A stretch of DNA of 20,221 nucleotides, from NCBI GenBank assembly GCA_001044195.1, contig LFCU01000241.1, positions 1-20,221 of the forward strand. Direction: 5' to 3'. The notes under the pieces are model-generated. The model saw only the letters and a list, made by a program, of their open reading frames with translations. It searched no databases and was not told where the DNA came from. The position numbers and the translations under genes are program-made. The DNA is from Candidatus Achromatium palustre (GTDB lineage Bacteria; Pseudomonadota; Gammaproteobacteria; Chromatiales; Chromatiaceae). Positions 1 to 18,751 of the stretch are shown piece after piece. Numbering within the stretch: position 1 is the first letter of the stretch; each line of letters begins with the position of its first letter.

Positions 1-84
1 TAAATTTTATTTGCCTATCAAAATGTTAGGTAAGGGGGAACTTTTGACTGTCCAGATGATAATTACTTTGTACTGAGTGGCAAT

Positions 85-327
85 TTGGTTTATAACAGTG
101 AAGTAGAGGCACTGAAGGCCAAATTAACCCCCCTGTTAAATATGACCAAACAAGAATTGAAGGATTACTATAAAGAACAACGACGCAAAAAGCGTGATGG
201 TACGATCCTAAAAGGGGCAGGATTAGGTTTAATAGAGATGGCACGAAAATCGAGTAAGCCGTTAGCCTTTAGCTTTCAAAAGCTAGACGAGGAATTGTCT
301 TTCTTCTCGATTAATACAATTATTTAA
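85..327 (+). pseudogene. C-terminal fragment of a SiaB/DUF6272-like histidine-kinase-like ATPase (partner-switch kinase). The ATP-lid G-box GAGLGL is retained and about 100 N-terminal residues are missing.
   Basis: The translation aligns with residues about 105-184 of the full-length paralog at 9832-10386 (LTPxELKxYYKEQ...GAGLGLI...). The ORF begins with TTG at 85. There are in-frame stops at 1-3 and 31-33, and stops in the other two forward frames within the first 84 nt, so no N-terminal half is contiguous in this window. Confidence 0.5.
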
Positions 328-340
328 ATGGCGGTATAAC

Positions 341-730
341 ATGGAAAACCTTTATGTTGCCGCAACTAAATCATCTCCAGAGATTAATTTTGATTGTAAA
401 AACAATATTCTCGAGATTAAGGGCGAATCATATCCAGAAAACACGGCAAAGTTTTATACACCCGTTATATCCTGGCTTAACGAATATGTTGATGCTTTAG
501 ATGCAGAGCAAGTAACTGTAAATATAGAACTTATTTATTTTAATAGTAGTTCATCAAAAGTCCTGTTAGACATATTTGATATATTTGATGAGTTAGCAGG
601 TCAAGGCAAGCAAATCACTCTCAATTGGATTTTTGATGTAGAAAATGAAAATGTTGAAGAAGCTGGCGAGGAATTTCAAGAGGATTTTGAATCACTTACA
701 TTTAATTTAGTCCCCAAAGAAGAAGATTAG
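341..730 (+). CDS. SiaC-like DUF1987 partner-switch phospho-protein (129 aa)
   Basis: Carries the GESYPEN motif and has an acidic C-terminus. It is about 40 percent identical to the paralog at 10391-10780 (LKGxSYPEN, NxSSSK, ITLNW conserved). It lies immediately downstream of the SiaB-like fragment. Confidence 0.8.
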   Translation: MENLYVAATKSSPEINFDCKNNILEIKGESYPENTAKFYTPVISWLNEYVDALDAEQVTVNIELIYFNSSSSKVLLDIFDIFDELAGQGKQITLNWIFDVENENVEEAGEEFQEDFESLTFNLVPKEED

Positions 731-854
731 AACTACTCAAAATCAGGAGTTATGCAGAGAGCTTGCGGCACTTACAATGCCGCTATCTGCAATCCTTCAA
801 TGTTTAACACAAATGAATATACTTTACACAATACAATATTAGCAGAAAAATTGC

Positions 855-1847
855 ATGCCTATAAATAAGTTACATTCTAATGAAGATGAATCATCAAATC
901 TATTCAAACAAGAAGATAATATATGTCGCCGTTCTGAAGAGATTATTAGAAATAAAACAGAAAACATAAGTAATGAAGAATATAGTCTGCTTGCCAAGAA
1001 TTATAAAAAATTACTTAAGCAGACCAAAAGACTGATTAGAATAGGCGACATGCAGCAACTAAAATTAGATCAGGCTAATAAGGAGCTATCTGAAAAAAAT
1101 CAACAAATTACTGATAGTATTTACTATGCTCGACGTATCCAACAGGCTATGCTACCGAGCAAGGACGCAACACAGGAAGCATTTGGCGAAAATGCCTTTG
1201 TTATCTATCGTCCGCATAGCATTGTTTCAGGTGATTTTTATTGGTTGACTCATACTGAACGAAAAATTTTGATTGCGGCAATAGATTGTACTGGACATGG
1301 GGTGTCTGGAGCGTTTTTGTCTATGATAGGGAATACCCTGTTAAACAAAATTGTCTTAAAAGATCGGATACATAATCCAGCACGTATCTTAGAACAATTG
1401 CATCGAGGAGTGCGTAGCGAATTACAACAAGAAACCGGAAATATTAGCGATGGTATGGATGTTTGTCTATGCTGCATTGATGGAATTAACGTAACCTTTG
1501 CTGGAGCCAAACGACCTTTATATTATTTTTCGCAGCAACAACTGCAAGAACTTAAGGGGGATCGGAAATCTATCGGTGGTCGTCAAAAAGAAGAACAACG
1601 CACATTTACCAATCAAGAAATTATATTGAATCCTGGCGATACCCTGTATCTAAGTAGTGACGGGATAGCTGATCAACCAAATCCACAGGGAAAAAGGTTT
1701 GGCTCCAGACGGCTGAAAGCACTGTTAAATGAGATAGCACCCTACTCAATGACAAAACAGGAACATCTAATTCGGATTCAGCTTGAAATGCACCAACAGG
1801 ACGAACTCCAACGGGACGATATTACATTACTTGGTGTCCGTGTTTAA
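855..1847 (+). CDS. PP2C/SpoIIE-family serine phosphatase with an N-terminal coiled-coil (SiaA/RsbU-like partner-switch phosphatase, 330 aa)
   Basis: PP2C/SpoIIE-like motifs are present: SGDFYW, AIDCTGHGVSGAF, LSSDGIADQ. The N-terminus is coiled-coil with heptad-like K/E/L-rich sequence. It is adjacent to the SiaB/SiaC-like genes. Confidence 0.85.
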   Translation: MPINKLHSNEDESSNLFKQEDNICRRSEEIIRNKTENISNEEYSLLAKNYKKLLKQTKRLIRIGDMQQLKLDQANKELSEKNQQITDSIYYARRIQQAMLPSKDATQEAFGENAFVIYRPHSIVSGDFYWLTHTERKILIAAIDCTGHGVSGAFLSMIGNTLLNKIVLKDRIHNPARILEQLHRGVRSELQQETGNISDGMDVCLCCIDGINVTFAGAKRPLYYFSQQQLQELKGDRKSIGGRQKEEQRTFTNQEIILNPGDTLYLSSDGIADQPNPQGKRFGSRRLKALLNEIAPYSMTKQEHLIRIQLEMHQQDELQRDDITLLGVRV

Positions 1848-1880
1848 CTTACAGATAGAGGAGGAATTGTGAATAATATT

Positions 1881-1907
1881 GGCAACCTTCATTTACAGTA
1901 AACACTT
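1881..1907 (-). repeat. Copy of a dispersed bipartite intergenic motif: Y-unit AAGTGTTTACTGT plus X-unit AAATGAAGGTTGCC, read on the minus strand
   Basis: The same X unit (AAATGAAG[GA][AT]TGCC) and Y unit (AGTGTAAACT-like) recur at 9102-9130, 9401-9433, 9521-9597 and 15134-15225. Confidence 0.5.
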
Positions 1908-1937
1908 GAGGGATTGTTCCTACGTTACTGTGGGTTA

Positions 1938-1948
1938 GGGGGGGGGGG
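1938..1948. repeat. Homopolymeric G11 tract (C11 on the minus strand)
   Basis: Eleven consecutive G in an otherwise AT-rich intergenic spacer. The spacer lies between convergent genes, with the phosphatase stop at 1847 and the small ORF stop at 1971. Confidence 0.9.
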
Positions 1949-1970
1949 TGTTCTATGCTACAAAACCTTT

Positions 1971-2219
1971 TTAACTATATTCTAAAACCGTATCCCACTG
2001 TTCAGAACTAAGCAAAGAATCTTCAAGATCAGATGAGTCTGTGTCATCGAAAAACACGGATGTATCCTCTCTAATTTCTGCATAAATGACTTTTAATCGT
2101 TCACGCTCAAAATCAAATTCGGATCGTATTGCATCTACATCAACTGGTAGTGTTGCATTGATATTGTTTTTTAACCAATTTTCAATATCTAGGCTGCGTT
2201 TTGTCCATTTATCAATCAT
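1971..2219 (-). CDS. Small acidic protein (82 aa), paralog of the ORF at 3153-3407. It is translationally coupled to the upstream MotB-like gene.
   Basis: Its start overlaps the MotB-like stop by ATGA (2216-2219). The first 30 aa are identical to the paralog, and the acidic S/T-rich tail DDTDSSDLEDSLL is conserved. No TM helix or signal peptide is present. Confidence 0.6.
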   Translation of the reverse strand: MIDKWTKRSLDIENWLKNNINATLPVDVDAIRSEFDFERERLKVIYAEIREDTSVFFDDTDSSDLEDSLLSSEQWDTVLEYS

Positions 2220-3109
2220 TGCGTTGTTCCCAAGGCTTTTTGGGGCTTATTCCTTTTGGTGAAGCGTAGTTCAATGCGTCTTCGAGAAGGGACGTTTTTA
2301 TTTTGGGCACCCTGCAATATGTTATTGTTTGGGGAAATAAGTTGTGATCCTGAGTAAACTCTAAAAACAAGTTGTTTTAAGCGTGGATCATTTGATCTTG
2401 CAAATATATTAAACAATGCTGCCGCAACAGATAAGGCGCGAGCTAGTCCGAGATCTGCATTTGAGCCAATTTGTAGTTGTCTAATCACGTTTGCTGATGT
2501 AGGTCCGAATTGAAAATTTCTTAATTTGGTATCCAGATTGGATGCTCTAGATCTTACTGGTATTCCATCAGTATGCCCTATAACTTCTATTACTTCGATT
2601 GGATAATCTTTAATGATAGCTAATATTTTGGGAACTATGTTTTGTTCTAAACGGCCTTCAAATTCAGGAGATACATTACTACTTCCAGATGTAAAAACAT
2701 AACCTGAAGCTTCTTGTAATGGAAATACTAAGGGCTTATCTGGCCTACGTTTTAATTCACCTTCTAAACCTTTAATGCGAGCTGTGTAATGGGATCGATA
2801 GGTTTGCAGTCTTTCTACTAATCTTTCTAATTCAGCCTCTAAAACTTGAATACGGTTTGCGCTATCTGTACGATTTGTTCTACAAGTTTGCAGTGTTTGT
2901 TCTAAATTTTCAATATTTTGTGAAGAATTTAATTGATGTCGAGTTAATTCTATTCCTAATCTTTTTATCTCTTGTTTTAATTTTTGCAGTATACCAAAAT
3001 GCATGGTATTATCCACCACCCATAAAATCAATACTAACATCAATATTGCTAAAATTAGATCTGTTAATGATGGCCAAAATGACACTTCATCTTTCTGTTT
3101 GTTAAACAT
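2216..3109 (-). CDS. MotB/ZorB-like stator subunit (about 298 aa). It has an N-terminal TM helix with a conserved Asp, an approximately 90-aa coiled-coil linker, and a C-terminal OmpA-like peptidoglycan-binding domain.
   Basis: The TM segment is LTDLILAILMLVLILW, with the D-x12-W spacing seen in MotB. The OmpA motif GHTDG...NxxLGLARALSVAAAL is present. The start was chosen at the internal Met (MFNKQKDEVSFWPS, ATG at 3109) by homology with the N-terminus of the paralog (MFRKYQEEVSFWPS). The 339-aa track ORF from 3235 would overlap the upstream small ORF. Confidence 0.75.
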   Translation of the reverse strand: MFNKQKDEVSFWPSLTDLILAILMLVLILWVVDNTMHFGILQKLKQEIKRLGIELTRHQLNSSQNIENLEQTLQTCRTNRTDSANRIQVLEAELERLVERLQTYRSHYTARIKGLEGELKRRPDKPLVFPLQEASGYVFTSGSSNVSPEFEGRLEQNIVPKILAIIKDYPIEVIEVIGHTDGIPVRSRASNLDTKLRNFQFGPTSANVIRQLQIGSNADLGLARALSVAAALFNIFARSNDPRLKQLVFRVYSGSQLISPNNNILQGAQNKNVPSRRRIELRFTKRNKPQKALGTTQ

Positions 3110-3152
3110 AAACAAGCATCCTGAATTGTTGTACCTAAAAATAGATAGCTTA

Positions 3153-3407
3153 TTACTGTAATTTGTATTCCAGTACCATGTCCCACTGTTCAGGATTAAG
3201 CAAAGAATCTTCAAGATCAGATGAATCGGTATCATCTAAAAAAACAGCCATATCACCTTCAATTGTTACATAAATATTTTCTAAACGTTCTAATTCGGTA
3301 TCAAATACATATCGCATTGCATCTACATCAACTGGTAGTGTTGCATTGATATTGTTTTTTAACCAATTTTCAATATCTAGGCTGCGTTTTGTCCATTTAT
3401 CAATCAT
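3153..3407 (-). CDS. Small acidic protein (84 aa), paralog of 1971-2219. It is translationally coupled to the upstream MotB-like gene.
   Basis: There is an ATGA start/stop overlap with 3404-4045. The N-terminal 30 aa are identical to the paralog, and the acidic tail DDTDSSDLEDSLL is conserved. Confidence 0.6.
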   Translation of the reverse strand: MIDKWTKRSLDIENWLKNNINATLPVDVDAMRYVFDTELERLENIYVTIEGDMAVFLDDTDSSDLEDSLLNPEQWDMVLEYKLQ

Positions 3408-4045
3408 TGCGTTGTTCCCAATACTGTTTGGGGTTTATTCCTTTTGGTGAAGCGTAGTTCAATGCGTCTTCGAGAAGGGACGTTTTTATTTTGGGCACCC
3501 TGCAATATGTTATTGTTTGGGGAAATAAGTTGTGATCCTGAGTAAACTCTAAAAACAAGTTGTTTTAAGCGTGGATCATTTGATCTTGCAAATATATTAA
3601 ACAATGCTGCCGCAACAGATAAGGCGCGGGCTAGTCCAAGATCTGCATTTGAGCCAATTTGTAGTTGTCTAATCACGTTTGCTGATGTAGGTCCGAATTG
3701 AAAATTTCTTAATTTGGTATCCAGATTGGATGCTCTAGATCTTACTGGTATTCCATCAGTATGCCCTATAACTTCTATTACTTCGATTGGATAATCTTTA
3801 ATGATAGCTAATATTTTGGGAACTATGTTTTGTTCTAAACGGCCTTCAAATTCAGGAGATACATTACTACTTCCAGATGTAAAAACATAACCTGAAGCTT
3901 CTTGTAATGGAAATACTAAGGGCTTATCTGGCCGGCGCATTGAAATATCTACTATCCATAAAATCAACACTAATAACAATACTGCTAAAATTAAATCTGT
4001 TAATGAGGGCCAAAATGATACTTCTTCTTGGTATTTACGAAACAT
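3404..4045 (-). CDS. MotB/ZorB-like stator subunit, short form (213 aa). The TM helix is joined directly to the OmpA-like domain, so it lacks the coiled-coil linker of its paralog.
   Basis: The TM segment is LTDLILAVLLLVLILW. The OmpA-like domain is nearly 100 percent identical to that of the paralog. The RRPDKPLVF junction follows immediately after the TM helix. Confidence 0.75.
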   Translation of the reverse strand: MFRKYQEEVSFWPSLTDLILAVLLLVLILWIVDISMRRPDKPLVFPLQEASGYVFTSGSSNVSPEFEGRLEQNIVPKILAIIKDYPIEVIEVIGHTDGIPVRSRASNLDTKLRNFQFGPTSANVIRQLQIGSNADLGLARALSVAAALFNIFARSNDPRLKQLVFRVYSGSQLISPNNNILQGAQNKNVPSRRRIELRFTKRNKPQTVLGTTQ

Positions 4046-4150
4046 AATGCTTTAATGAAATTATTAAGAATCACTATTAAATGATTTAATAGTTTGATTT
4101 ATAAATGTTTGTATATAATATTATATGGTTTATTGTATGAAATGTAGGTA

Positions 4151-5962
4151 CTACCCATTCCACCACTTAGATAATTTTGAACTTGAAACTTTAGTATTAG
4201 TCTGGTTTAGTACGTTAGAGAGATTTGCAATAGATACCTGCAATAACTTCATGTCATCATGGAAATTTTTATCGTATTGATGAGATGGGTTAGCACTACT
4301 TAACAATGAACCAATTTTTGTTTGCAATTCCGAAGCCATAGCATTTGCAAATACCGTTGGTAAATTTTGTAGAAGAGTTTGATGTAATTGTTGTTGAGTT
4401 GATATTGCGGTCTTAATTGCGCTGGAAAAATTGCGAAACTCGGTAATAAGGCTGGTATTATGTTGACTAGAAACGTTTGTACTATTTGCTAATGAATCAA
4501 GCTCCGCTTGTAACTTAGAAGTTATGGCATCTGCAATTATCATTGGTAGATCTTCTAACAGATTTTTAGTGTTTGCGGCTTCTGTCGTGACTGTATTTGA
4601 AAAATTGCTAAATTCAGTATTAAAGTTCGTTAGTTCCGTTTTCCATTGTACTGTAATGCTGTTTAACAATTTGCCATATTTATCAATGTTGCTAGTTGTT
4701 ACAGCTAAACTATCAATAACAGTTTGCAAGCTTTTAACTGAATTGGTTGCTTCCGTAGCAGTATCTAAGACAGATTTGGTTAAATTAGCTGTCTCCTGGT
4801 GCAAGATAAACAATTCTTTGTTTTGGGCAGTTGAAAGCTCTTGCATTTTTACTACAGCATCTTGTAATTGGGCATAACGCTGTTCTGCTGGACTAACCGC
4901 CTGATATAGTTTATCCATAGCTTGCAAAAAAGGGGCATTTGAGGCAACACTTTTATCGAAACGATTAGCTGCGGTATTAAGAGTATTTGCCGCTTGCCCT
5001 ATACTCTGTATAATTGGTGACAAAGCTGCTGCAAATTGGGTCATAGCATCTGTTGTATTTTGGGCTGATTTATTAATGGCTGCTATGGCACTATTGTTGG
5101 TATTATTGATGTTCTTAGCAGAAGTGTCAAAAGCATCAGACAATAGTTCACTTCCTATTGAAATTGTATCCATAAATTCAGTTATAGATTTATTAGTATT
5201 TGCAGCTAATTGGTTAATACCCGTTATGGCACTATCGCTTGTATTATTGATGTTTGTAGTATAAGTATCAAAGGCTTCAGATATTTCTTGGCTTTTTGTT
5301 GAAATAGTATCACCAAGTTTAGAGATAGATTCTTCGGTTTTTTCTGATTGAGTTTCTATTATTTTAATTTTATTGCTATCATTCCATGGAATTAAAACTT
5401 TGCTGGCAAAATTTACAAAATTTCGTGCAGCTATATTGTATGTAGGATCAAGCAATCCGAAGCGAATAGCCTGTAATATCAGCGTTGCAATGACTCCAAA
5501 GATGCTAGGCCAAAACGCACTAGTAAGTGCCTCTTGTAATTGTTGATAGGTATCTTGATTTATTCCCTCTGGAACAGCATAATGTAACGAAAATAAGGTA
5601 CCAGCGATACCACATAGCAACACTACTGAAATGGCATATCTTCTAATACCAATAAGAATCTTAATCCATAACTCATTTGGCTCAATAAGATCAATAGCCG
5701 CTTCTGGTGCATGATCAGTTGCCAAAATTCGATTAAATGCTGGTCTTAATGGGTGATTTTTTCCTATTTTGCGATCTAGCCAAGCTCGCATATTAGTAGG
5801 ATCAGTATTTCGTAAATCATATTCAAGATCTGCAATAACTTTGGACTGAGTATACCAAAACCGGATCTCCAAAATAAAACCAATAATAGCTGAAATACTT
5901 AAGATAGCTATTATTCCTATAAATATTATAGAAGCTGTAGACATGTTTAAAAGTATAGACAT
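4151..5962 (-). CDS. MotA/ExbB/TolQ-like membrane protein with a roughly 420-aa low-complexity helical C-terminal tail (603 aa). It looks like a ZorA-like motor subunit.
   Basis: It has three predicted TM helices in ExbB-like topology: residues 10-32, then around 100-125 (LLCGIAGTLFSL), then around 150-175 (IFGVIATLILQAIRFGL). The tail from about residue 190 to 603 is rich in N/T/S/A/Q, contains internal imperfect repeats (for example SxAFDTxxxNINNT), and has no TM. The gene sits directly upstream of two MotB-like genes and directly downstream of the kinase, with a 27-bp gap. Confidence 0.7.
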   Translation of the reverse strand: MSILLNMSTASIIFIGIIAILSISAIIGFILEIRFWYTQSKVIADLEYDLRNTDPTNMRAWLDRKIGKNHPLRPAFNRILATDHAPEAAIDLIEPNELWIKILIGIRRYAISVVLLCGIAGTLFSLHYAVPEGINQDTYQQLQEALTSAFWPSIFGVIATLILQAIRFGLLDPTYNIAARNFVNFASKVLIPWNDSNKIKIIETQSEKTEESISKLGDTISTKSQEISEAFDTYTTNINNTSDSAITGINQLAANTNKSITEFMDTISIGSELLSDAFDTSAKNINNTNNSAIAAINKSAQNTTDAMTQFAAALSPIIQSIGQAANTLNTAANRFDKSVASNAPFLQAMDKLYQAVSPAEQRYAQLQDAVVKMQELSTAQNKELFILHQETANLTKSVLDTATEATNSVKSLQTVIDSLAVTTSNIDKYGKLLNSITVQWKTELTNFNTEFSNFSNTVTTEAANTKNLLEDLPMIIADAITSKLQAELDSLANSTNVSSQHNTSLITEFRNFSSAIKTAISTQQQLHQTLLQNLPTVFANAMASELQTKIGSLLSSANPSHQYDKNFHDDMKLLQVSIANLSNVLNQTNTKVSSSKLSKWWNG

Positions 5963-5989
5963 GTTTATAAATAATCCCTAATTTATTAA

Positions 5990-7354
5990 TTATATCGAAT
6001 TTGTCATTGGTTCAATAGATACTCGCCCGTGTGCAAAGTCAAACGCCCTTACTCCTACAAACCGAAATGCGTGATTACGTTTACATCGTAGTTGCCTCCC
6101 AGAAGCAAGATGCACAATCCAGGTATCATTGCTTAAATTTTTGAGAGTCATCCCACGTTCTGGTGTCTCTTTTATTTCGGCCATTGGACGCTTAAATTGA
6201 AATTCCTGATTATCCAAATGGTGCTCATAGAGTTTGCGTCCATGAGTCGCTAAAATTTTAGTACCATTAGAAAATTTTAAATACCAACGTTTATTTGGAT
6301 GCTTGGTATCGCAAAATAGACATGTACAATTCTGATCGGAGATAAAAAAACGTTGGTGACAATTAGAGCATTCCGCCATACATTCCAACGCTTGCCAAAA
6401 TTCTCTAGCCCAAGTTGCCGCTGAATGGCGTTTTGTAGGATTTTTAAGCCCAATGGTGAATACTTGTTGAAATCTAGTTTGCATGGACTTTGGCAAATGA
6501 GCAAATGGAATACCATTAGTAGTAAAACGATTCCTACTATCTGTAGGATGTTCAGTAAAGATAGCACTAGTACCAAGTCCCTCATCTTCAGTCATGTAAT
6601 CCAAATTAAAATTCGGATCAACATCGCCTATAAATGGATGCCTAAACATGACTAAATAAAACAGTAGTACGGCCAAACTATGTCGATCCGTTTCCGCAGA
6701 TGGATGTGGATGTTGTGCTGTTATAAGCTCTGGTGCTCTAAAACCAGGAGTTCCAGCTACTTTTACTGGCAGATAGTTACTATTCCCACATGCAAGATTA
6801 TCGCAATCAATAAGACATATACTACCATCAGAGGTATTAAAAAATACATTACCCAAAGATAAATCGCAATGAGTCATCCCATGGCTATGAATCATCCGTA
6901 ACGCTTGCGAAAGGTAGAAGCCTGCTAATAAAAAATGATGATATTTATCATAATTGCTAAGTACAGAACGCAGGGCTGCACTTATAAATGGATTGGGTTG
7001 GTCATAAGGATCTGTAAGTAATGAATCGTGATTCAGTGGTTTACCTATCGCCAATTCCATTAGTACGCCAAATTCATTAGCAGAACTATATATAGCTCTG
7101 GGAAAGCAAACTTGGGCTTGGGGTAAAGTCCTGGCAATTTCTTTGGCAACATCGATGATTGTTTCTAGGCGTTCTTGCTGTTGATATAGTTCTGCTTGAG
7201 CGGGTAGTTTTTTAAATAATTTAAGGGCCATTTTATGGCTATCATGAGTGCGCTGGACTTGCCAGACATCAGCCTGTTGTCCAGAGCCTAGTGCAGCTTT
7301 ATACTTATATTCTTCGCCGTTAGTTGTAGTAAAGTTGGAGTTTTCTGTAGGCAT
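5990..7354 (-). CDS. Hanks-type Ser/Thr protein kinase (454 aa) with a C-terminal Cys-rich zinc-ribbon and an additional uncharacterised roughly 100-aa domain
   Basis: Kinase motifs are present: a G-loop LGSGQQADVW, the lysine in ALKLF, the catalytic loop HCDLSLGNV, a DFG-like DCD, and GTPGFRAPE. Cys clusters include CMAECSNCH and CTCLFCDTKH. Confidence 0.85.
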   Translation of the reverse strand: MPTENSNFTTTNGEEYKYKAALGSGQQADVWQVQRTHDSHKMALKLFKKLPAQAELYQQQERLETIIDVAKEIARTLPQAQVCFPRAIYSSANEFGVLMELAIGKPLNHDSLLTDPYDQPNPFISAALRSVLSNYDKYHHFLLAGFYLSQALRMIHSHGMTHCDLSLGNVFFNTSDGSICLIDCDNLACGNSNYLPVKVAGTPGFRAPELITAQHPHPSAETDRHSLAVLLFYLVMFRHPFIGDVDPNFNLDYMTEDEGLGTSAIFTEHPTDSRNRFTTNGIPFAHLPKSMQTRFQQVFTIGLKNPTKRHSAATWAREFWQALECMAECSNCHQRFFISDQNCTCLFCDTKHPNKRWYLKFSNGTKILATHGRKLYEHHLDNQEFQFKRPMAEIKETPERGMTLKNLSNDTWIVHLASGRQLRCKRNHAFRFVGVRAFDFAHGRVSIEPMTNSI

Positions 7355-7366
7355 GATATTAATAGG

Positions 7367-8272
7367 TTACAGATTGTAAAATACAGCTACCAGTGTTTTA
7401 TCATCATCAGAAAATTTATGTTCTTCCCAGTAATTACAATATGCTGTGGCATATTCTTCTAAAGCTACTGGATCATCTAAGCATTGTTTTAATTTTGGCC
7501 ATATAGCACTAAAATATAAGTTGGGATCGCCAATACTTTCACTCAGCCCATCGGTCATAAGGCAGAAACCTACACTATCTTTGTATTCAGTTATTCCAGG
7601 ACTTGACTCTGCAAAACCACGTTGCCATTCAGTGTTGGTTAACGGTCGAACTTCATTGACAAAGCCTTCACGTATATTTTCAGTTAAAAGCTGTGCTGCA
7701 ACTTTATCATCTGGTCTTGAAGAGATTTTATATATAGCACCATCTCCAACGATTGCTGCCCAGTAACCTTCAGAGTTTAAATATAGTAGTAATGCTGTTG
7801 TGGCGTATTCTGTTAAGTAGCCATCTACTAATGTTTGTGAAGATGTTTTTATATCCTGGGTATCATCTTTATTTTTATGACCAGTTTTATTTTGCTCGTT
7901 ATCTTCTTGGCATAATATTACAAACTTATCTCTAGCGTCAGTAAAGTAGTCTTTCAATTGATTGCTATTAAGAATACTTGTGCTTGCACCACTAAATACT
8001 TGACCCAGGGCAGTACAAGCACATTCAGCTCCTTTACGAGAGCGTGATCTGGTACTTACTCCATCTGCTACGGTTAGAGTCAGTGATTTAATATCATCTA
8101 CTTTTGTAGGTGTAGGCCAGTAAGCAGTAAAATCTTGGCATTCTGTACTTTGATCCACATGAGCTTTACCACGCCAAGAAAACGTTACAATTGCTATACT
8201 TTTGCCAGATATGTTGTAACGTTTAATTTTTGGAGGTATGCTAAAATGCTCAGAATTTAAATAAGCAGTCAT
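7367..8272 (-). CDS. PP2C-family Ser/Thr phosphatase (301 aa), the TerY-P phosphatase component
   Basis: Metal-binding Asp/Gly motifs are present: VADGVS, VGDGAIY and LMTDGLSE. It lies 8 bp after the vWA gene and 12 bp before the kinase gene. Confidence 0.8.
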   Translation of the reverse strand: MTAYLNSEHFSIPPKIKRYNISGKSIAIVTFSWRGKAHVDQSTECQDFTAYWPTPTKVDDIKSLTLTVADGVSTRSRSRKGAECACTALGQVFSGASTSILNSNQLKDYFTDARDKFVILCQEDNEQNKTGHKNKDDTQDIKTSSQTLVDGYLTEYATTALLLYLNSEGYWAAIVGDGAIYKISSRPDDKVAAQLLTENIREGFVNEVRPLTNTEWQRGFAESSPGITEYKDSVGFCLMTDGLSESIGDPNLYFSAIWPKLKQCLDDPVALEEYATAYCNYWEEHKFSDDDKTLVAVFYNL

Positions 8273-8279
8273 AGTGCTT

Positions 8280-8954
8280 TTAATTAACTAACTGAGTTCC
8301 AGGAATCTCACTTATGGGTCGTTTTTCTGAAATTTCTACTGTCAATGTCCTTAAATTTTTAAAAAAGCCACTGATAGTAGCTTGATCTTTCAGTCTAACA
8401 ATGTGCGATTTTTCTCTACCCTTATGGTAAAAGGCAGTTAAAACCGAATCGTTTATATCATCACCGGCTCCAGCAATTACTCTAATTCCAGCGACTCTAC
8501 CTGATGGTCTAGTGCCTATAAGAGGATTTTCATTCATAAGCTGTAATTGATCTTTCCAAGCTTGTTCGGAGCAATTAGGGTTACCATCGGTGATAAATAC
8601 AAATAATGGTTCTTTGCCTTTTTTTAATTCGTTTTTATTACGTTCTACTAATGCTAATACTTCTGCTAAACCTGCATCAAGGTTTGTGTATCCTGCTCCC
8701 ACTTCAATTTGAGGAATATCTATAGAGCCAATAGGTTGATGTTCAATGATAGTCTCAGCAATATCGCTAAAAGTTATCACCGATATAAAGACAGAATCAC
8801 GGGTATCTTCATTGCTTTGCAATTCTTCGATGTAATCACGAATGCCATTATTAGCCTGTTGTATACCAACTGGCTCCATACTATAAGATACGTCTACTAA
8901 CAATATAATGGGTATGGGTTTACGTGCAGTTGCACCATCTGGTATTTCAATCAT
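8280..8954 (-). CDS. TerY-like von Willebrand factor A domain protein (224 aa) with a MIDAS motif. It is the first gene of the operon.
   Basis: The MIDAS motif DxSxS is present as ILLVDVSYSM, with downstream FITDG. An AGGAA ribosome-binding site lies about 10 nt upstream of the ATG. An 876-bp AT-rich non-coding region lies upstream. Confidence 0.85.
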   Translation of the reverse strand: MIEIPDGATARKPIPIILLVDVSYSMEPVGIQQANNGIRDYIEELQSNEDTRDSVFISVITFSDIAETIIEHQPIGSIDIPQIEVGAGYTNLDAGLAEVLALVERNKNELKKGKEPLFVFITDGNPNCSEQAWKDQLQLMNENPLIGTRPSGRVAGIRVIAGAGDDINDSVLTAFYHKGREKSHIVRLKDQATISGFFKNLRTLTVEISEKRPISEIPGTQLVN

Positions 8955-9011
8955 GCTTTATTTATTCCTAATATATTACGACAAATAGTGGATTTCATTT
9001 TGTTTCTACTT

Positions 9012-9041
9012 ATTCTACATATTAATAGGCACAAAGATCAA
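9012..9041 (-). promoter_or_regulatory. Candidate sigma70-type promoter for the TerY-P/ZorAB-like operon (TTGATC-N18-TAGAAT on the minus strand)
   Basis: A -35-like TTGATC (reverse complement at 9036-9041) and a -10-like TAGAAT (reverse complement at 9012-9017) are separated by an 18-nt spacer, about 60 nt upstream of the vWA start codon. This was found by eye only. Confidence 0.25.
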
Positions 9042-9101
9042 CTACTTTCCAATTGCACTATAAAGGTCAAATTGTATTTGACACTATCTATATCAATTTT
9101 A

Positions 9102-9130
9102 GGGCATCCTTCATTTCTCAGTGTACAATT
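9102..9130 (-). repeat. Copy of the dispersed bipartite X/Y motif (reverse complement: AATTGTACACTGAG-AAATGAAGGATGCC)
   Basis: Its X unit matches AAATGAAGGATGCC at 9539-9552, and its organisation matches 1881-1907 and 15189-15225. Confidence 0.5.
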
Positions 9131-9400
9131 TATAGATTGGTTATATTTTTAGCATTCTTTATCAATACCTCGATGCTCAAAAGTTAGAAAACGCTTATAT
9201 ACTTAGATATGTTGACATTACATATTTTAATTAGATTTTTACTTGATTAGCTCTACTCAATATTGTATACGTTCTATCCTGTAGAAGCCTTATAGCTTAA
9301 GTAATTAAAATATTACCTAATACTAACTTTTGAACATCAAGAATGCTGATGCGAATATCCTATTTCCAATTCAAAAAGTGGGCATCATTCACCAACACCC

Positions 9401-9433
9401 AAAAGTAGTTTACACTTTAAGAAGGATGACGAC
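9401..9433 (-). repeat. Y-unit (AAAGTGTAAACTACTTT, reverse complement) plus a degenerate X-like unit (GAAGGATGAC). It forms a 17-bp inverted repeat with 9556-9572.
   Basis: AAAGTAGTTTACACTTT at 9401-9417 is the exact reverse complement of AAAGTGTAAACTACTTT at 9556-9572. Confidence 0.5.
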
Positions 9434-9520
9434 AAGTAAAATAAATTTTTTCTTAACTTGAAACATCTGATATATAAACACTTTTTAGAAATAAAAAATA
9501 TTTTCAATTTTTAATGTCCT

Positions 9521-9597
9521 TAAAAAGTGTTAACCGACAAATGAAGGATGCCAAAAAGTGTAAACTACTTTGTAGACGGAAATAAAGAATGCCACGA
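9521..9597 (+). repeat. Cluster of X/Y motif units: a Y-like unit, X (CAAATGAAGGATGCC), Y (AAAAAGTGTAAACTACTTTG), then an X-like unit (AAATAAAGAATGCC)
   Basis: The units were read directly from the sequence. They sit in the 876-bp intergenic region between the vWA gene and the second SiaB-like gene. Confidence 0.5.
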
Positions 9598-9720
9598 TTA
9601 AAATTGGATATGATTTCTTCCCCAATTATAACTTTATGCTTATTAAACAGGGAGAGGTTTTTAAATAATATCTAATGTTACAAATTTAATTTGGAAAAGT
9701 AGAATTTCTTAACAGAACAA

Positions 9721-9786
9721 TATAATGCGCATTAAACTTGATATGCACCAACGGGATGATATCACATTACTTGGTGTACGTATTTA
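9721..9786 (+). pseudogene. Relic 3' end of a PP2C/SpoIIE phosphatase gene (encodes MRIKLDMHQRDDITLLGVRI-stop). It is an imperfect direct repeat of 1771-1847.
   Basis: It is about 85 percent nucleotide identical to the last roughly 25 codons of the phosphatase gene at 855-1847 (IRIQLEMHQQDELQRDDITLLGVRV-stop). It carries a 15-nt in-frame deletion flanked by CCAAC microhomology. The final 35 nt are 31/35 identical. Confidence 0.6.
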
Positions 9787-9831
9787 AATATAGATAAAGA
9801 TTACCATAAACTTAAAATAGAGACAAAAATT

Positions 9832-10386
9832 ATGGATAATTTCGATGTTTTCGAATTTTATCAATTTATGCAAAGACAAAATGTGATTCTATCCTTCAAG
9901 GGAGAAATGTCACAGCAAATACTGGTTAATATTGGTGATTTATTGAAAGAAAAATTAGCATCTGAAGATACGGAAAAACAGGTCACTAAAAAAGTATTCT
10001 TCATTTTCGTTGAATTGGCGCAAAATATTCACCGTTATTCCGCTGATCGAGGCATTGAAGATAAAAAACGAGCAGGTACAGGTGTGTTATTTGTTAAAGA
10101 ATCTGCCAATTATTTCACAATTTTTGCTGGCAATAGAGTTGCTCCTCTGGAAGCAAAAGTGACCACCGAGCAATGTTTGGCAATTAGCCGATTAACGCCA
10201 AATGAACTGAAGCTATATTATAAAGAACAACTAAAACAACCGCGTGAAGATGAAACCTCTGGTGCTGCTGGTCTTGGACTTATTAGTATCGTCCGTAAAG
10301 CCGAAAACCCAATTGTTGCGTATACTATAGACATTGATACCAATGAAACTTTTTTGGTACTATCAGTTCAAGTGAATAAGGAATAA
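9832..10386 (+). CDS. SiaB/DUF6272-like histidine-kinase-like ATPase (partner-switch Ser/Thr kinase, 184 aa)
   Basis: The sequence has a GHKL-type N-box-like stretch (ELAQNIHRY), a G1-like stretch (TGVLFV) and a G2-box (GAAGLGLI). It is followed 4 nt later by a SiaC-like gene. Confidence 0.8.
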   Translation: MDNFDVFEFYQFMQRQNVILSFKGEMSQQILVNIGDLLKEKLASEDTEKQVTKKVFFIFVELAQNIHRYSADRGIEDKKRAGTGVLFVKESANYFTIFAGNRVAPLEAKVTTEQCLAISRLTPNELKLYYKEQLKQPREDETSGAAGLGLISIVRKAENPIVAYTIDIDTNETFLVLSVQVNKE

Positions 10387-10390
10387 ACCA

Positions 10391-10780
10391 ATGCAAGATC
10401 TAAAGATTGTTGGCACAAAAGATACATTAACCGTAAATTTTATAGTAGAATCTGGTATCTTGACATTGAAAGGAGCCTCTTATCCAGAAAATCCTGTTAA
10501 TTTTTTTGATCCGCTCTATACATGGATTACAACATATACACAAGAAATCCATAATACATTAACCGTGAATATGACGATTAATTATGTGAATACTAGTTCA
10601 TCTAAATGCTTACTTGATTTTTTAGAATTACTGGAAAATTATCATAATTCAGGCGGAAAGATTACGCTTAATTGGTACTATGAAGAGGATGATGAAGACA
10701 TGTTAGAGTGTGGTGAAGAATTGTGCGAAGATCTAAAGCTGCCCTACTCAATGATTCCAATTGTTGGGAATCCTGAATAA
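10391..10780 (+). CDS. SiaC-like DUF1987 partner-switch phospho-protein (129 aa)
   Basis: It has the LKGASYPEN motif and an acidic C-terminus, and is paralogous to 341-730. Confidence 0.8.
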   Translation: MQDLKIVGTKDTLTVNFIVESGILTLKGASYPENPVNFFDPLYTWITTYTQEIHNTLTVNMTINYVNTSSSKCLLDFLELLENYHNSGGKITLNWYYEEDDEDMLECGEELCEDLKLPYSMIPIVGNPE

Positions 10781-10956
10781 TTCGTATTTTATAGGATTTA
10801 CGCACTGATAACATAATCTTCCCGTATTTTGATGTAACTGTTTATAAAAATATAGAAATATTGTAAATTTTTATTTATCAATGCATAAATCCGATATTAT
10901 ATCTACCCGAAACCGCAAATTTAGCGAGTTACGTTAAACGTAATTCTTCTTAGTAG

Positions 10957-10981
10957 TAGGGTGCGCAATGCGCACCCTACC
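10957..10981. terminator. Perfect palindromic hairpin (11-bp GC-rich stem GTAGGGTGCGC, loop AAT) between convergent genes. It may act as a bidirectional terminator or RNA-stability element.
   Basis: GTAGGGTGCGCAATGCGCACCCTAC is a perfect palindrome. It lies between the SiaC-like stop at 10780 and the caspase-Sel1 gene stop at 11245. No strong T-tract follows on either strand. Confidence 0.4.
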
Positions 10982-11074
10982 TGGATTAATTATTTAGGAT
11001 ACTACGATAATGAATACGGTGTGGTTGATTTGCGTCATTACCTAAACGACTTTGACGATCCTGTTCATAACCCA

Positions 11075-11218
11075 TAGGATGGGTAGAGCGAAGCGAAACC
11101 CATCAAATCCATCTCATAATCTATTACGCCCAAAGTTTTTTGTCATTACTTTGGATTGATGTAAAGGTTGCAAATATAATTTTTGAATGATGGGTTTCGC
11201 TTCGCTCTACCCATCCTA
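11075..11218. mobile_element. MITE-like element of about 144 bp, with 30-bp perfect terminal inverted repeats (TAGGATGGGTAGAGCGAAGCGAAACCCATC) and an 84-bp AT-rich core
   Basis: Positions 11075-11104 are the exact reverse complement of 11189-11218. The core has its own 7-bp stem (CCAAAGT...ACTTTGG) and no ORF. It lies 27 bp downstream of the caspase-Sel1 stop codon. Confidence 0.5.
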
Positions 11219-11244
11219 CCGTGCTATGCATTTTAAATGCCTAA

Positions 11245-15794: not shown

Positions 15795-15929
15795 ATTAGG
15801 GTTCCTAAAAAATAATTTAAATGTATTATACTCGACTATCCAGTTTTTTTGACTTGACAAATTTGTAGGGCGGGAGAACGAAGTGATCCAGCCTTCTATA
15901 TAAGTTTACTATTTTGCAATAATGTTGGA

Positions 15930-18621: not shown

Positions 18622-18751
18622 GTAGATATCAACATGAAATGTAATTGAGACAATTTAGATGATATGTTTAAAATGCGGCTCATCAATCAATTAAAAATCA
18701 CTAACCCTTGGGCAACAACCCGCAAATAAGTAGCACACCCTACCTTTATTT

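What the first reader, a model, noticed from the sequence alone, without database searches (positions are those of the whole stretch)
1771..9786. A roughly 7.9-kb island carrying the TerY-P/ZorAB-like operon is bracketed by imperfect direct repeats of a phosphatase gene 3' end, inside a rearranged partner-switch locus
What the sequence shows: the last roughly 77 nt of the PP2C gene (1771-1847, ...MHQQDELQRDDITLLGVRV-stop) recur at 9721-9786 (MRIKLDMHQRDDITLLGVRI-stop). The identity is about 85 percent, with a 15-nt deletion flanked by CCAAC microhomology. The second copy sits immediately upstream of the second SiaB/SiaC-like pair and has no upstream phosphatase body.

This nucleotide identity is far higher than the roughly 40 percent amino-acid identity between the two SiaB/SiaC paralog pairs. 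The repeat is therefore not simply an old paralog.

Inference: the canonical order is phosphatase, then SiaB, then SiaC. The segment 1848-9720, holding the defence-like operon plus an 876-bp AT-rich region, therefore appears to have been inserted between the phosphatase gene and its cognate kinase/substrate genes, duplicating the target end. Alternatively, the locus recombined between two phosphatase genes. The same locus also has a 5'-truncated SiaB-like fragment at 85-327, consistent with repeated rearrangement.
Basis: partly seen in the sequence, partly recalled or inferred. Interest (0 to 1): 0.65.

Follow-up and report, generated by a model that had tools for sequence, protein, structure and literature searches.

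The report
Defence island inserted in phosphatase gene tail
A 7.9-kb cassette of phage-defence-like genes sits inside the tail of a phosphatase gene in one Achromatium genome and is absent from the same spot in a sister genome; it is a well-documented example of an ordinary kind of genomic island, unusual only in having no recombinase gene of its own.

Summary
The last 92 nt of the SpoIIE/PP2C gene (1756-1847) recur at 9711-9787. Identity is 66 of 76 aligned bases (87%), with one 15-nt gap between two CCAAC words.

Achromatium sp. WMS3 is 97-98% identical in the flanks. It has SiaB1-SiaC1-PP2C-SiaB2-SiaC2 with one copy of the tail and no island.

That single copy is copy-A type to the left of a 5-nt GATAT and copy-B type to the right. 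The two states therefore differ by one reciprocal crossover inside the repeat, with 7,940 nt extra in the window. The phosphatase reading frame stays intact at 330 aa in both states.

More distant relatives keep PP2C-SiaB-SiaC adjacent. The cassette's relatives lie in unrelated contexts. So the cassette's presence here is derived.

The island is a conserved six-gene module: a VWA/PP2C/kinase "TerY-P"-type triad, a MotA/ExbB-like protein with a long tail, a MotB/OmpA-like protein and a small protein. It has no integrase, transposase or terminal inverted repeats, and its composition is host-like.

Insertion versus excision, and the enzyme responsible, cannot be settled from two genomes. The closest known cases are e14 in icd/icdC and integrase-less CIMEs. 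This is a new member of a known kind, of moderate-low interest.

The parts
55..327 (+). 3' fragment of SiaB1 (DUF6272 / SiaB-family kinase), truncated at a synteny break about 50-55 nt from the contig end
   Evidence: Pfam DUF6272, profile positions 63-134 only. WMS3 has the full 185-aa gene. blastn homology starts at window 55, and the alignment shows divergence upstream of about 52.
341..730 (+). SiaC1 (partner-switch phosphoprotein, first pair)
   Evidence: Pfam SiaC, 7.8e-46. It differs from the WMS3 copy by 2 synonymous changes.
855..1847 (+). SpoIIE/PP2C phosphatase (SiaA-like catalytic domain), 330 aa, intact
   Evidence: Pfam SpoIIE, 2.6e-22. NCBIfam SiaA phosphatase domain 210 bits, below the equivalog cut-off. 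It is 68% identical to the L001 phosphatase that precedes SiaB-SiaC. It is 330 aa in WMS3 too.
1756..1847 (+). Repeat copy A (attL-like): the functional tail of the phosphatase gene
   Evidence: Alignments. Left of GATAT it matches WMS3. Right of it, three differences (1823, 1838, 1842) set it apart from WMS3 and from copy B.
1818..1822 (+). Crossover interval GATAT in copy A (partner interval 9758-9762 in copy B; 4131-4135 in L007)
   Evidence: It is bounded by diagnostic differences 1817C/9757T and 1823T/9763C. WMS3 carries C at both positions, so it is A-type at the first and B-type at the second (coordinates).
1823..9762 (.). The 7,940 nt present in the window and absent from WMS3 (equivalently 1818-9757)
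   Evidence: blastn: L007 2369-4169 matches window 55-1857, and L007 4121-5215 matches window 9748-10846. The two matches overlap by 49 nt in L007.
1971..2219 (-). Small conserved protein (82 aa), last gene of the cassette
   Evidence: A protein of 78-83 aa occupies the same position in L009, L012 and L013. No Pfam or PADLOC hit.
2216..3235 (-). MotB/ZorB-like protein (339 aa): N-terminal membrane helix with Asp, coiled coil, OmpA-like domain
   Evidence: Pfam OmpA 2.4e-4, below cut-off. PADLOC ZorB 5.7e-8. NCBIfam MotB family 1.6e-6.
3153..4045 (-). Tandem duplicate of the previous two genes (84-aa protein at 3153-3407; 213-aa MotB/ZorB-like protein lacking the coiled coil at 3404-4045)
   Evidence: 1978-2745 and 3166-3933 are 94.1% identical. 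3001-3111 and 3937-4047 are 82% identical.
4151..5962 (-). 603-aa membrane protein: MotA/TolQ/ExbB-like N-terminal domain plus a roughly 400-residue helical tail (ZorA-like architecture)
   Evidence: AlphaFold2 pLDDT is about 80-87 for residues 10-200, and the rest is helical at low confidence. Top Foldseek PDB hits are TolQ and ExbB (probability 1.0, E 3e-3, TM about 0.5 on the target). PADLOC ZorA hits are weak, 2e-5, in the tail only.
5990..7354 (-). Ser/Thr protein kinase (454 aa)
   Evidence: Pfam Pkinase, 1.3e-17. It is 25-27% identical to kinases of ter loci on plasmids.
7367..8272 (-). PP2C_2 phosphatase (301 aa)
   Evidence: Pfam PP2C_2, 8.5e-24.
8280..8954 (-). VWA (TerY-like) protein (224 aa), first gene of the cassette
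   Evidence: Pfam VWA, 5.9e-10.
8955..9710 (.). AT-rich (27% GC) non-coding stretch between the cassette's first gene and copy B
   Evidence: GC 0.274. No ORF of note. No similarity to the empty site. No Rfam family or tRNA. Promoter-like sites are no more frequent than in shuffles.
9711..9787 (+). Repeat copy B (attR-like relic): a phosphatase tail without a gene body, 44 nt upstream of SiaB2
   Evidence: Right of GATAT it is identical to WMS3 and continues into the shared intergenic region. Left of GATAT it is diverged, has the 15-nt gap, and has an in-frame TAA (9710-9712) overlapping the left edge of the homology.
9832..10386 (+). SiaB2 (SiaB-family kinase), intact
   Evidence: NCBIfam SiaB_fam_kinase 161 bits against a cut-off of 85. 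It is 66% identical to L001. Against WMS3 it has 12 synonymous changes and 1 non-synonymous.
10391..10780 (+). SiaC2, intact
   Evidence: Pfam SiaC, 2.1e-39. It is 67% identical to the L001 SiaC.

Best explanation
The window is a whole 20.2-kb contig of an Achromatium genome, closely related to Achromatium sp. WMS3.

A 7,940-nt non-autonomous island sits in the last 30 nt of a SpoIIE/PP2C phosphatase gene. The island is a six-gene cassette: a TerY-P-type triad plus a MotAB/ZorAB-like pair and a small protein. Its last two genes are tandemly duplicated, and it includes about 750 nt of AT-rich DNA.

The island is bracketed by two diverged direct copies (87% identity) of the tail of that gene.

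The occupied state (window) and the unoccupied state (WMS3) differ by one reciprocal, Campbell-type crossover between the two tails. The exchange falls within a 5-nt GATAT.
- Copy A is the chromosomal left half joined to the other tail's right half. It keeps the phosphatase reading frame whole at 330 aa.
- Copy B is the reciprocal product. It is a dead tail fragment left in front of SiaB2.

The event splits the ancestral PP2C-SiaB2-SiaC2 transcription unit. SiaB2-SiaC2 now lie 8 kb downstream, behind a convergent operon and an AT-rich spacer.

Shown: the repeats, the empty site, the position of the exchange, the orthology of the split genes, and the absence of any recombinase or transposon ends in the island.

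Inferred:
- The island entered as a circular molecule carrying its own copy of a phosphatase tail.
- The exchange was made by a site-specific recombinase encoded elsewhere or since lost. This is the e14/icd or CIME pattern, as opposed to general recombination.
- The direction of the event, gain in the window lineage or loss in WMS3, is open.
For: **Empty site.** L007 and L008 carry SiaB1-SiaC1-PP2C-SiaB2-SiaC2, with a 40-nt PP2C-SiaB2 spacer. L007 2369-4169 matches window 55-1857 at 98.4%. L007 4121-5215 matches window 9748-10846 at 97.0%. The two matches overlap by 49 nt in L007.

**Reciprocal pattern.** Of the four A/B differences right of the gap, WMS3 is A-type at 1817 and B-type at 1823, 1838 and 1842. 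These last three are 3 of the 15 window-versus-WMS3 differences in the 993-nt gene. They fall in its last 25 nt, whereas 1368-1801 has none.

**Adjacency is ancestral.**
- L001 and L002 have V4R, HAMP-SpoIIE, SiaB, SiaC and HisK in that order, with 21-nt and 52-nt spacers between phosphatase and SiaB.
- L006 has the same order.
- Identities to L001 are 68% (PP2C), 66% (SiaB2) and 67% (SiaC2), against 37% for SiaC1.

**The cassette is a portable module.** The same six genes in the same order occur in L009-L014 with unrelated flanks. No Achromatium copy exists other than the window's.

**Not a transposon.**
- There are no terminal inverted repeats, with the score at shuffle level.
- There is no transposase or integrase among the ORFs.

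**Not an assembly collapse.**
- The longest exact A/B match is 14 nt.
- Two independent assemblies agree on the empty site.
- No kinase at 90% identity or more exists in the WMS3 data.

**The reading frame is preserved** at 330 aa in both states.

[quoted passage not shown] Excision recombines them into a functional chimera (PMC13626634). CIMEs keep attL and attR but have lost their integration genes (PMC5704250).
Against: - No recombinase gene lies in the island or anywhere on the contig, so the enzymology is pure inference.
- Homology between the tails extends on both sides of the exchange point (about 60 nt to the left, 25 nt to the right). A classical attP that only restores a gene's end needs the right side alone.
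- The divergence left of the exchange (10 of 47, plus the 15-nt gap) and right of it (3 of 25) are not significantly different. The two tails could therefore equally be an old local duplication.
- The island's GC (35.9%), GC3 (25%) and codon usage (r = 0.8 with the flanks) are host-like. Its nearest relatives have 50-55% GC. This argues against recent arrival from a distant donor and allows long residence followed by loss in WMS3.
- The dyad ACTCCAA/TTGGTGT centred on the exchange is not significant, with a background of 8.5%.
- No circular junction or second occupied site was found.
- The WMS3 assembly, and probably the window's too, comes from amplified single cells.
Confidence: 0.75

Rival explanations
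1. Loss, not gain. The common ancestor of the window and WMS3 already had the island and both tails. The tails would be either an old duplication or the last remnant of a second phosphatase gene. WMS3 later deleted the island by recombination between the two direct repeats, producing the hybrid single copy. The hybrid would then be a consequence of the deletion and would say nothing about how the island first arrived.
For: - The hybrid A-left/B-right structure of WMS3 is exactly what a deletion between A and B gives.
- The island is fully adapted to host composition, while its relatives are at 50-55% GC.
- The A/B divergence (13%, plus indels) is more than twice the synonymous divergence between the two genomes (pS 0.059). 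The repeats are therefore older than the strain split unless one copy was imported already diverged.
- Copy B carries a 15-nt slippage-type deletion, and an in-frame stop overlaps its left edge. Both fit a decaying fragment.
- e14 excision produces just such chimeras.
Against: - It still needs an earlier insertion between PP2C and SiaB2, because adjacency is the state in all other relatives. It therefore changes the timing, not the nature, of the event.
- No remnant of a second phosphatase body exists upstream of copy B.
- No relative has two phosphatase genes in this arrangement.
- The exchange lies in a 5-nt interval and not in the 14-nt identical run that general recombination would favour.
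Confidence: 0.3
2. The island was integrated or excised by the host's general or illegitimate recombination, with no dedicated recombinase. A circular or sister-chromosome copy carrying a homeologous phosphatase tail recombined with the chromosome. This fits a polyploid cell whose chromosome copies differ.
For: - No recombinase gene is present.
- Homology lies on both sides of the exchange.
- Achromatium cells are reported to hold many non-identical chromosomes with frequent rearrangement and interrupted operons (PMC5587575).
- The same 11-kb region shows two further synteny breaks between 97-98% identical genomes.
Against: - The substrate is only about 77-92 nt at 87% identity, and its longest identical run is 14 nt. 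That is poor material for RecA-type recombination.
- The exchange sits in a 5-nt interval flanked by mismatches.
Confidence: 0.2
3. Transposon-type insertion with a target-site duplication that has since diverged.
For: Direct repeats flank the extra DNA.
Against: - The repeat is 77-92 nt, far longer than transposase-made duplications.
- The repeat copies are 13% diverged.
- The island ends carry no inverted repeats.
- No transposase is present.
- WMS3 is a hybrid of the two copies rather than equal to one of them.
Confidence: 0.03
4. Artefact. Either the contig is a chimera from single-cell amplification or assembly, or the WMS3 contig is an assembly collapse across the repeat.
For: The WMS3 genome comes from an MDA-amplified single cell and is a fragmented assembly. 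The window is a short contig that ends 54 nt beyond a synteny break.
Against: - Two chimeric joints would both have to fall in homologous positions of a diverged repeat.
- Copy B's left half is a diverged homologue that a chimera cannot create.
- The longest shared exact word is 14 nt, below assembler k-mer sizes.
- The empty site is found in two independent assemblies.
- No island gene appears in the WMS3 read set.
Confidence: 0.03

Closest known systems
e14 cryptic prophage in the icd gene of E. coli K-12 (icd / icdC)
   Same: The element sits in the 3' end of a protein-coding gene. The gene stays functional because its tail is supplied by the other repeat copy. A homologous C-terminal fragment (icdC) is left at the far end. 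Excision recombines the two into a chimeric but intact gene (PMC13626634). Here PP2C stays at 330 aa in both states, and WMS3 carries the chimeric tail.
   Different: e14 encodes its own integrase and excises on SOS induction. This island has no recombinase or phage genes. The repeat here is shorter (77-92 nt), and most of the homology lies upstream of the exchange point, not downstream.
CIMEs (cis-mobilizable elements): decayed integrative elements that keep attL and attR but lack integration and transfer genes
   Same: The island is flanked by att-like direct repeats at the 3' end of a target gene and has no integrase or transfer genes (definition in PMC5704250).
   Different: CIMEs are defined by descent from an ICE or IME, and by mobilisation when a related ICE integrates next to them. 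Neither could be tested here. No trace of conjugation or integration genes remains, and the host is a gammaproteobacterial giant sulfur bacterium, not a streptococcus.
TerY-P triad (vWA TerY + PP2C phosphatase + Ser/Thr kinase) of ter loci
   Same: The same three domains occur in the same order, VWA then PP2C then kinase. The kinase is 25-27% identical (E 2e-32) to kinases that follow VWA/TerY-C/PP2C genes in ter loci of IncHI plasmids and of Azospirillum.
   Different: There are no TerD, TerC or TerY-C genes. The triad is instead joined to a MotA/ExbB-like and MotB-like pair and a small protein in a fixed six-gene module. No defence activity has been tested.
ZorAB core of Zorya anti-phage systems
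   Same: One membrane protein has a MotA/TolQ/ExbB-type domain followed by a very long helical tail. Its partner has a membrane helix and an OmpA-like peptidoglycan-binding domain. ZorA5B2 is described with exactly these features (PMC11946911).
   Different: Sequence matches to the ZorA and ZorB models are weak (2e-5 and 3e-8), and for ZorA they fall only in the coiled-coil tail. None of the soluble Zorya partners (ZorC, ZorD and the like) is present. Stoichiometry and function are unknown.
SiaABC partner-switch module of Pseudomonas aeruginosa
   Same: It contains a SiaB-family kinase (NCBIfam 161 bits against a cut-off of 85), a SiaC-family phosphoprotein (Pfam 1e-39 to 1e-46) and a SiaA-like PP2C domain.
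   Different: No SiaD diguanylate cyclase is present. There are two paralogous SiaB/SiaC pairs around one short phosphatase. The phosphatase lacks the HAMP-containing N-terminus of its 394-aa orthologues.

Membership tests
Integrative element in the 3' end of a protein-coding gene (e14/icd type) | Direct repeats at both ends: one is the working tail of the target gene, the other a tail fragment without a gene body | tested here: met
   Copy A is 1756-1847 inside the intact 330-aa gene. Copy B is 9711-9787 with no upstream phosphatase sequence.
Integrative element in the 3' end of a protein-coding gene (e14/icd type) | Unoccupied site in a close relative with a single repeat copy that is a hybrid of the two | tested here: met
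   WMS3 loci L007 and L008 are A-type at 1817 and B-type at 1823, 1838 and 1842.
Integrative element in the 3' end of a protein-coding gene (e14/icd type) | Element-encoded integrase or recombinase next to an att site | tested here: not met
   No recombinase domain appears in any ORF of 1848-9710 or of the rest of the contig, using Pfam, PADLOC and NCBIfam. The AT-rich spacer has no ORF of 60 aa or more, and its short ORFs were not searched against any family library.
Integrative element in the 3' end of a protein-coding gene (e14/icd type) | Excision to a circular form with an attP junction | not testable with these tools
   An exact-pattern scan of metagenome contigs for the core found nothing. 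Read data were not available.
CIME (cis-mobilizable element) | attL and attR retained; integration and transfer genes absent | tested here: met
   The repeats are present. No integration or transfer genes were found.
CIME (cis-mobilizable element) | Derived from a decayed ICE or IME and mobilised in cis by a related element | not testable with these tools
   No remnant of such genes is present. No second element is on the contig, and the contig ends at both sides.
Transposon / insertion sequence | Terminal inverted repeats, a transposase, and a short identical target duplication | tested here: not met
   The comparison of the island ends scores at shuffle level, 17 against a mean of 17.2. No transposase is present. 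The repeats are 77-92 nt and 13% diverged.
TerY-P triad | Adjacent genes for a vWA (TerY) protein, a PP2C phosphatase and a Ser/Thr kinase | tested here: met
   Pfam VWA 5.9e-10, PP2C_2 8.5e-24 and Pkinase 1.3e-17, in that gene order. The kinase is related to ter-locus kinases.
TerY-P triad | Anti-phage activity | not testable with these tools
   This needs an experiment. PADLOC has no hit for the VWA and PP2C_2 proteins.
Zorya (ZorAB core plus subtype-specific soluble partners) | ZorA: MotA-type membrane domain with a long cytoplasmic helical tail | tested here: inconclusive
   The fold of residues 1-220 matches TolQ and ExbB (probability 1.0, E 3e-3, TM about 0.5). The tail is predicted helical at low confidence. 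ZorA profile hits are weak and fall in the tail only.
Zorya (ZorAB core plus subtype-specific soluble partners) | ZorB: membrane helix plus peptidoglycan-binding domain | tested here: inconclusive
   ZorB1 profile 5.7e-8. OmpA Pfam 2.4e-4, below cut-off. MotB family 1.6e-6.
Zorya (ZorAB core plus subtype-specific soluble partners) | ZorC/ZorD, ZorE or ZorF/ZorG partner genes | tested here: not met
   No such hits among the cassette proteins. The partners here are the VWA/PP2C/kinase triad.
SiaABC-type partner switch | SiaB-family kinase, SiaC phosphoprotein and PP2C phosphatase encoded together | tested here: met
   NCBIfam SiaB_fam_kinase 161 bits (cut-off 85). Pfam SiaC 134-155 bits (cut-off 24.5). 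SpoIIE 80 bits (cut-off 25). The genes are adjacent in WMS3 and in L001, L002 and L006.

The most novel reading that the evidence does not exclude
This reading has two linked parts.

1. The cassette is a recombinase-less, "homology-tagged" mobile unit. It carries a diverged copy of the tail of its target gene. It hops between the non-identical chromosome copies or cells of polyploid Achromatium using host recombination or a trans-acting enzyme. That would make it a concrete, testable case of the intracellular gene transfer proposed for this genus.

2. Its cargo is an undescribed defence architecture, in which a ZorAB-like ion-driven stator with a long tail is wired to a TerY-P phospho-signalling triad in place of the ZorC/D-type effectors.
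Probability: 0.15. Interest if true: 0.65.

Novelty: new member of a known kind. Interest (0 to 1): 0.35.

Why it matters
The finding gives a base-exact pair of occupied and empty alleles for a defence-type island in Achromatium. This genus has been proposed to shuffle genes among many unlike chromosome copies within one cell. The predicted junction sequences (attB, attL, attR and a hypothetical attP) can be tested directly by PCR or read mapping in single cells.

It also shows how an island can cut a partner-switch operon in two without destroying any gene.

Finally, it draws attention to a conserved six-gene module that joins a TerY-P triad to a MotAB/ZorAB-like pair. The paper library searched here holds no paper that mentions TerY together with ZorA or ZorB.

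None of this overturns current understanding. Islands in gene tails with a leftover tail fragment have been known since e14/icd.

Tried and rejected
1. **Homology past the stop codon.** In the MAFFT alignment, copy A's homology appeared to continue past the stop codon into a SiaB-like ribosome-binding site and start (1848-1885). The Smith-Waterman score was 18 against a shuffle mean of 16.6, so the idea was dropped.
2. **AT-rich spacer (8955-9682).** I looked for a decayed phosphatase or integrase here. Neither tblastn, Smith-Waterman nor the ORF listing showed anything. An apparent second relic at 9589-9650, seen by eye, did not survive alignment.
3. **Exact look-up of the window's proteins.** The look-up of encoding contigs had no record. 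The relatives came from the listing of cluster members instead.
4. **Metagenome scan.** An exact scan for the repeat core gave 0 hits.
5. **Viral contigs.** A viral-contig scan with the kinase found no relatives. In phage records, matches were only 23-26% identical.
6. **Composition.** GC, GC3 and codon usage of the island against the flanks gave no foreign signal.
7. **Regulatory and RNA scans.** Promoter and terminator scans at both junctions were at shuffle level. Rfam and tRNA scans found nothing.
8. **Dyad symmetry around the exchange point.** ACTCCAA/TTGGTGT matches at 6 of 7 positions, but 8.5% of random 5-nt intervals do as well.
9. **Terminal inverted repeats or an extra direct repeat at the island ends.** None was found.
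10. **Source of copy B's left half.** I looked for it among 120 family members. All of them keep the five residues that are missing from the relic. Only the Achromatium proteins share the RI.L.MHQ motif, so no distinct donor gene was identified.

Full report
**Layout of the window.** The window equals the longest contig recorded for its own proteins (20,221 nt), so it is a complete contig with no further flank. On the plus strand it carries:
- a 3' fragment of a SiaB-family gene (85-327);
- SiaC1 (341-730);
- a 330-aa SpoIIE/PP2C phosphatase (855-1847).

On the minus strand it carries eight genes from 8954 down to 1971:
- a VWA protein;
- a PP2C_2 phosphatase;
- a Ser/Thr kinase;
- a 603-aa membrane protein;
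- two copies each of an OmpA-like (MotB/ZorB-like) protein and a small protein of about 83 aa.

Then come about 750 nt of 27%-GC non-coding DNA, the relic, SiaB2 (9832-10386) and SiaC2 (10391-10780). Unrelated genes follow.

- Copy A is 1756-1847 and copy B is 9711-9787.
- The two are offset by 7,940 nt.
- They share 66 of 76 aligned bases (86.8%), with one 15-nt gap between two CCAAC words and two single-base gaps.
- A 25-nt degenerate core matches only these two places, against none in 100 shuffles.
- The whole relic scores 58 against a shuffled maximum of 33.
- The part left of the gap alone scores 42 against a shuffled maximum of 28.
- Nothing else upstream of copy B resembles a phosphatase gene.

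**The empty site.** An exact look-up of the window's proteins in their 90%-identity clusters led to Achromatium sp. WMS3 (KOR32089.1 and KOR32088.1, adjacent locus tags). Its contig JXSO01000192.1 (L007) and an independent Logan assembly of run SRR1771809 (L008) carry the order SiaB1 (full length, 185 aa), SiaC1, PP2C (330 aa), SiaB2, SiaC2. Only 40 nt separate the phosphatase stop from the SiaB2 start.

By blastn, L007 2369-4169 equals window 55-1857 at 98.4%. L007 4121-5215 equals window 9748-10846 at 97.0%. The two matches overlap by 49 nt in L007, which is the single copy of the repeat. Synonymous divergence between the two genomes in the four shared genes is 0.059, and non-synonymous divergence is 0.003.

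**Where the exchange lies.** Right of the 15-nt gap, copies A and B differ at four positions: 1817C/9757T, 1823T/9763C, 1838C/9778A and 1842G/9782A. WMS3 has the A-type base at the first and the B-type base at the other three. It then continues into the intergenic sequence that follows copy B.

The two genomes therefore differ by one reciprocal exchange within GATAT (1818-1822 / 9758-9762). This is consistent with the distribution of differences in the phosphatase gene. Three of the 15 window-versus-WMS3 differences fall in its last 25 nt, while the 434 nt before position 1802 have none. The phosphatase is 330 aa in both states and ends in ...GVRV or ...GVRI.

**Which state is derived.** The closest non-Achromatium relatives of SiaB2 (66% and 62% identity) lie in operons ordered V4R, HAMP-SpoIIE, SiaB, SiaC and histidine kinase. 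The phosphatase stop is 21 or 52 nt before SiaB. A cyanobacterium-like contig has the same order.

The window's phosphatase is 68% identical to the L001 phosphatase over residues 69-330. This matches SiaB2 (66%) and SiaC2 (67%), while SiaC1 is only 37% identical. So PP2C-SiaB2-SiaC2 is an old unit, and the cassette between them is a derived state.

The cassette itself recurs as the same six genes in the same order in five other contigs with unrelated neighbours. Kinase identity to those copies is 54-68%. No other Achromatium copy was found.

What cannot be told from two genomes is the direction of the event. The window lineage may have gained the island after the split. Alternatively, the common ancestor had it and WMS3 lost it by recombination between the repeats. 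Both routes give the same hybrid.

**Clues on timing.** The island is compositionally host-like.
- Its GC is 35.9% against 36.7% and 33.5% in the flanks.
- Its GC3 is 25% against 28-32%.
- Its codon-usage correlation with the flanks is 0.8, as high as between the flanks themselves.
- The nearest cassettes are at 50-55% GC.
- The A/B divergence exceeds the synonymous divergence between the genomes.

Either the island has long resided in low-GC genomes of this kind, or one tail copy arrived already diverged. Divergence left and right of the exchange point is not significantly different, so a gradient cannot be claimed.

**Mechanism.** A transposon is excluded.
- The repeat is 77-92 nt long and its copies have diverged.
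- The island ends carry no inverted repeats.
- No transposase is present.

An assembly artefact is unlikely.
- The longest exact A/B word is 14 nt.
- Copy B's left half is a diverged homologue that a chimera cannot create.
- Two assemblies agree on the empty site.
- The WMS3 data hold no island kinase.

The structure is that of a Campbell-type single crossover between two gene tails. The textbook case is e14 in icd. There the prophage is flanked by icd and by the icdC tail pseudogene, and excision yields a working chimeric icd (PMC13626634). Integrase-less islands that keep attL and attR are known as CIMEs (PMC5704250).

I favour a site-specific recombinase acting in trans or since lost, for two reasons. 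The exchange falls in a 5-nt interval flanked by mismatches, not in the 14-nt identical run. And 87% identity over fewer than 100 nt is a poor substrate for general recombination. This step is inference. No recombinase is on the contig, homology lies on both sides of the exchange, and a dyad centred on it (ACTCCAA/TTGGTGT) is not significant.

The host matters here. Achromatium cells are reported to carry many non-identical chromosomes, with frequent rearrangement and interrupted operons (PMC5587575). The same 11 kb shows two more synteny breaks between these two genomes, at about 52-55 and at 10846/10847.

WMS3 is reported as closest to Candidatus Achromatium palustre (99% 16S identity, PMC4530308). 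That the window comes from that organism is my inference, not a result.

**The cargo.**
- The VWA, PP2C_2 and kinase genes form the TerY-P-type triad in the canonical order.
- The kinase is 25-27% identical to kinases that follow VWA, TerY-C and PP2C genes in ter loci of IncHI plasmids and of Azospirillum.
- The 603-aa protein has a confidently predicted N-terminal membrane domain whose best structural matches are TolQ and ExbB. A helical tail of about 400 residues follows.
- Its neighbour has a MotB/ZorB-like membrane helix and an OmpA-like domain.

This is the architecture described for ZorA5B2 (PMC11946911). However, profile matches to Zor models are weak and no ZorC/D/E/F/G partner is present, so I do not file it as Zorya. 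In the paper library searched, none of the listed best-ranked papers mentions TerY together with ZorA or ZorB. That is only an absence of evidence.

**Consequences for the host locus.** In WMS3 the phosphatase and SiaB2-SiaC2 can be read as one transcript. In the window they are separated by a convergent operon and an AT-rich spacer. Consensus scans give no promoter or terminator signal above chance, so how SiaB2-SiaC2 are now expressed is open. Both genes remain under purifying selection between the two genomes.

**Verdict.** The finding is a new, cleanly delimited member of a known kind: an island in a gene tail with a leftover tail fragment and no recombinase of its own. The direction of the event and the enzyme remain unresolved.

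Noticed in passing
window 1971-8954 (minus strand); L009 8433-14181, L012 820-6730, L013 8451-14232, L014 1088-5655: The island's genes form a fixed six-gene module found in at least five other contigs with unrelated flanks. The order is VWA, PP2C_2, Ser/Thr kinase, a 542-603-aa MotA/ExbB-like protein with a long helical tail, a MotB/OmpA-like protein, and a protein of about 83 aa. A TerY-P triad joined to a ZorAB-like pair was not mentioned in any paper of the searched library.
   Followed up: partly
window 1978-2745 and 3166-3933; also 3001-3111 and 3937-4047: The last two cassette genes are tandemly duplicated (94.1% identity over 768 nt). The second MotB/ZorB-like copy (213 aa) lacks the coiled-coil segment of the first (339 aa). 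Relatives have one copy of 302-356 aa.
   Followed up: partly
window 1-55; L007 706-2641: There is a second synteny break. Homology with WMS3 starts only at about 52-55, which cuts SiaB1 to its last 80 codons. WMS3 has a full 185-aa SiaB1 preceded by a 406-aa histidine kinase. The 54 nt at the contig end match nothing fetched.
   Followed up: partly
window 10847-11250: There is a third synteny break, 66 nt after SiaC2. The sequence beyond it differs from WMS3. It holds a GC-rich hairpin (about 10958-10979) and a perfect 31-nt inverted repeat (11075-11105 / 11188-11218, 82 nt apart), possibly a small mobile or regulatory element.
   Followed up: no
window 855-1058 (phosphatase residues 1-68); L004 4203-5213: The phosphatase lacks the HAMP-containing N-terminus of its 394-aa orthologues. 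A 336-aa relative (P0012, 54% identical over the full length) has the same short form. It sits in a differently ordered operon: V4R, SiaB, SpoIIE-393, SiaC, SpoIIE-336, HisK. This shows that gene order in the family is plastic.
   Followed up: partly
window 11245-15090 (minus strand): A 1,281-aa protein has an N-terminal caspase (Peptidase_C14) domain and 24 Sel1 repeats, encoded by a very regular 108-nt DNA repeat (60-91% identity between units).
   Followed up: no
window 15399-15860 (minus strand) and 16046-18562 (plus strand): A DUF1257 protein lies next to an 838-aa protein with major-vault-protein shoulder and vault repeat domains. That is an unusual domain for a bacterium.
   Followed up: no
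window 18682-18720; L007 157-195: A 39-nt intergenic motif (95% identical) is shared between otherwise unrelated positions of the two Achromatium contigs. It is probably a short dispersed repeat.
   Followed up: no
L006 7895-8551: In a cyanobacterium-like relative, the phosphatase-SiaB spacer is 657 nt long. It is filled with short tandem and palindromic repeats (GGGGGATTTAGGGGG units and GTAGGGT heptamers). The same junction has therefore been invaded by small repeats in another lineage.
   Followed up: no
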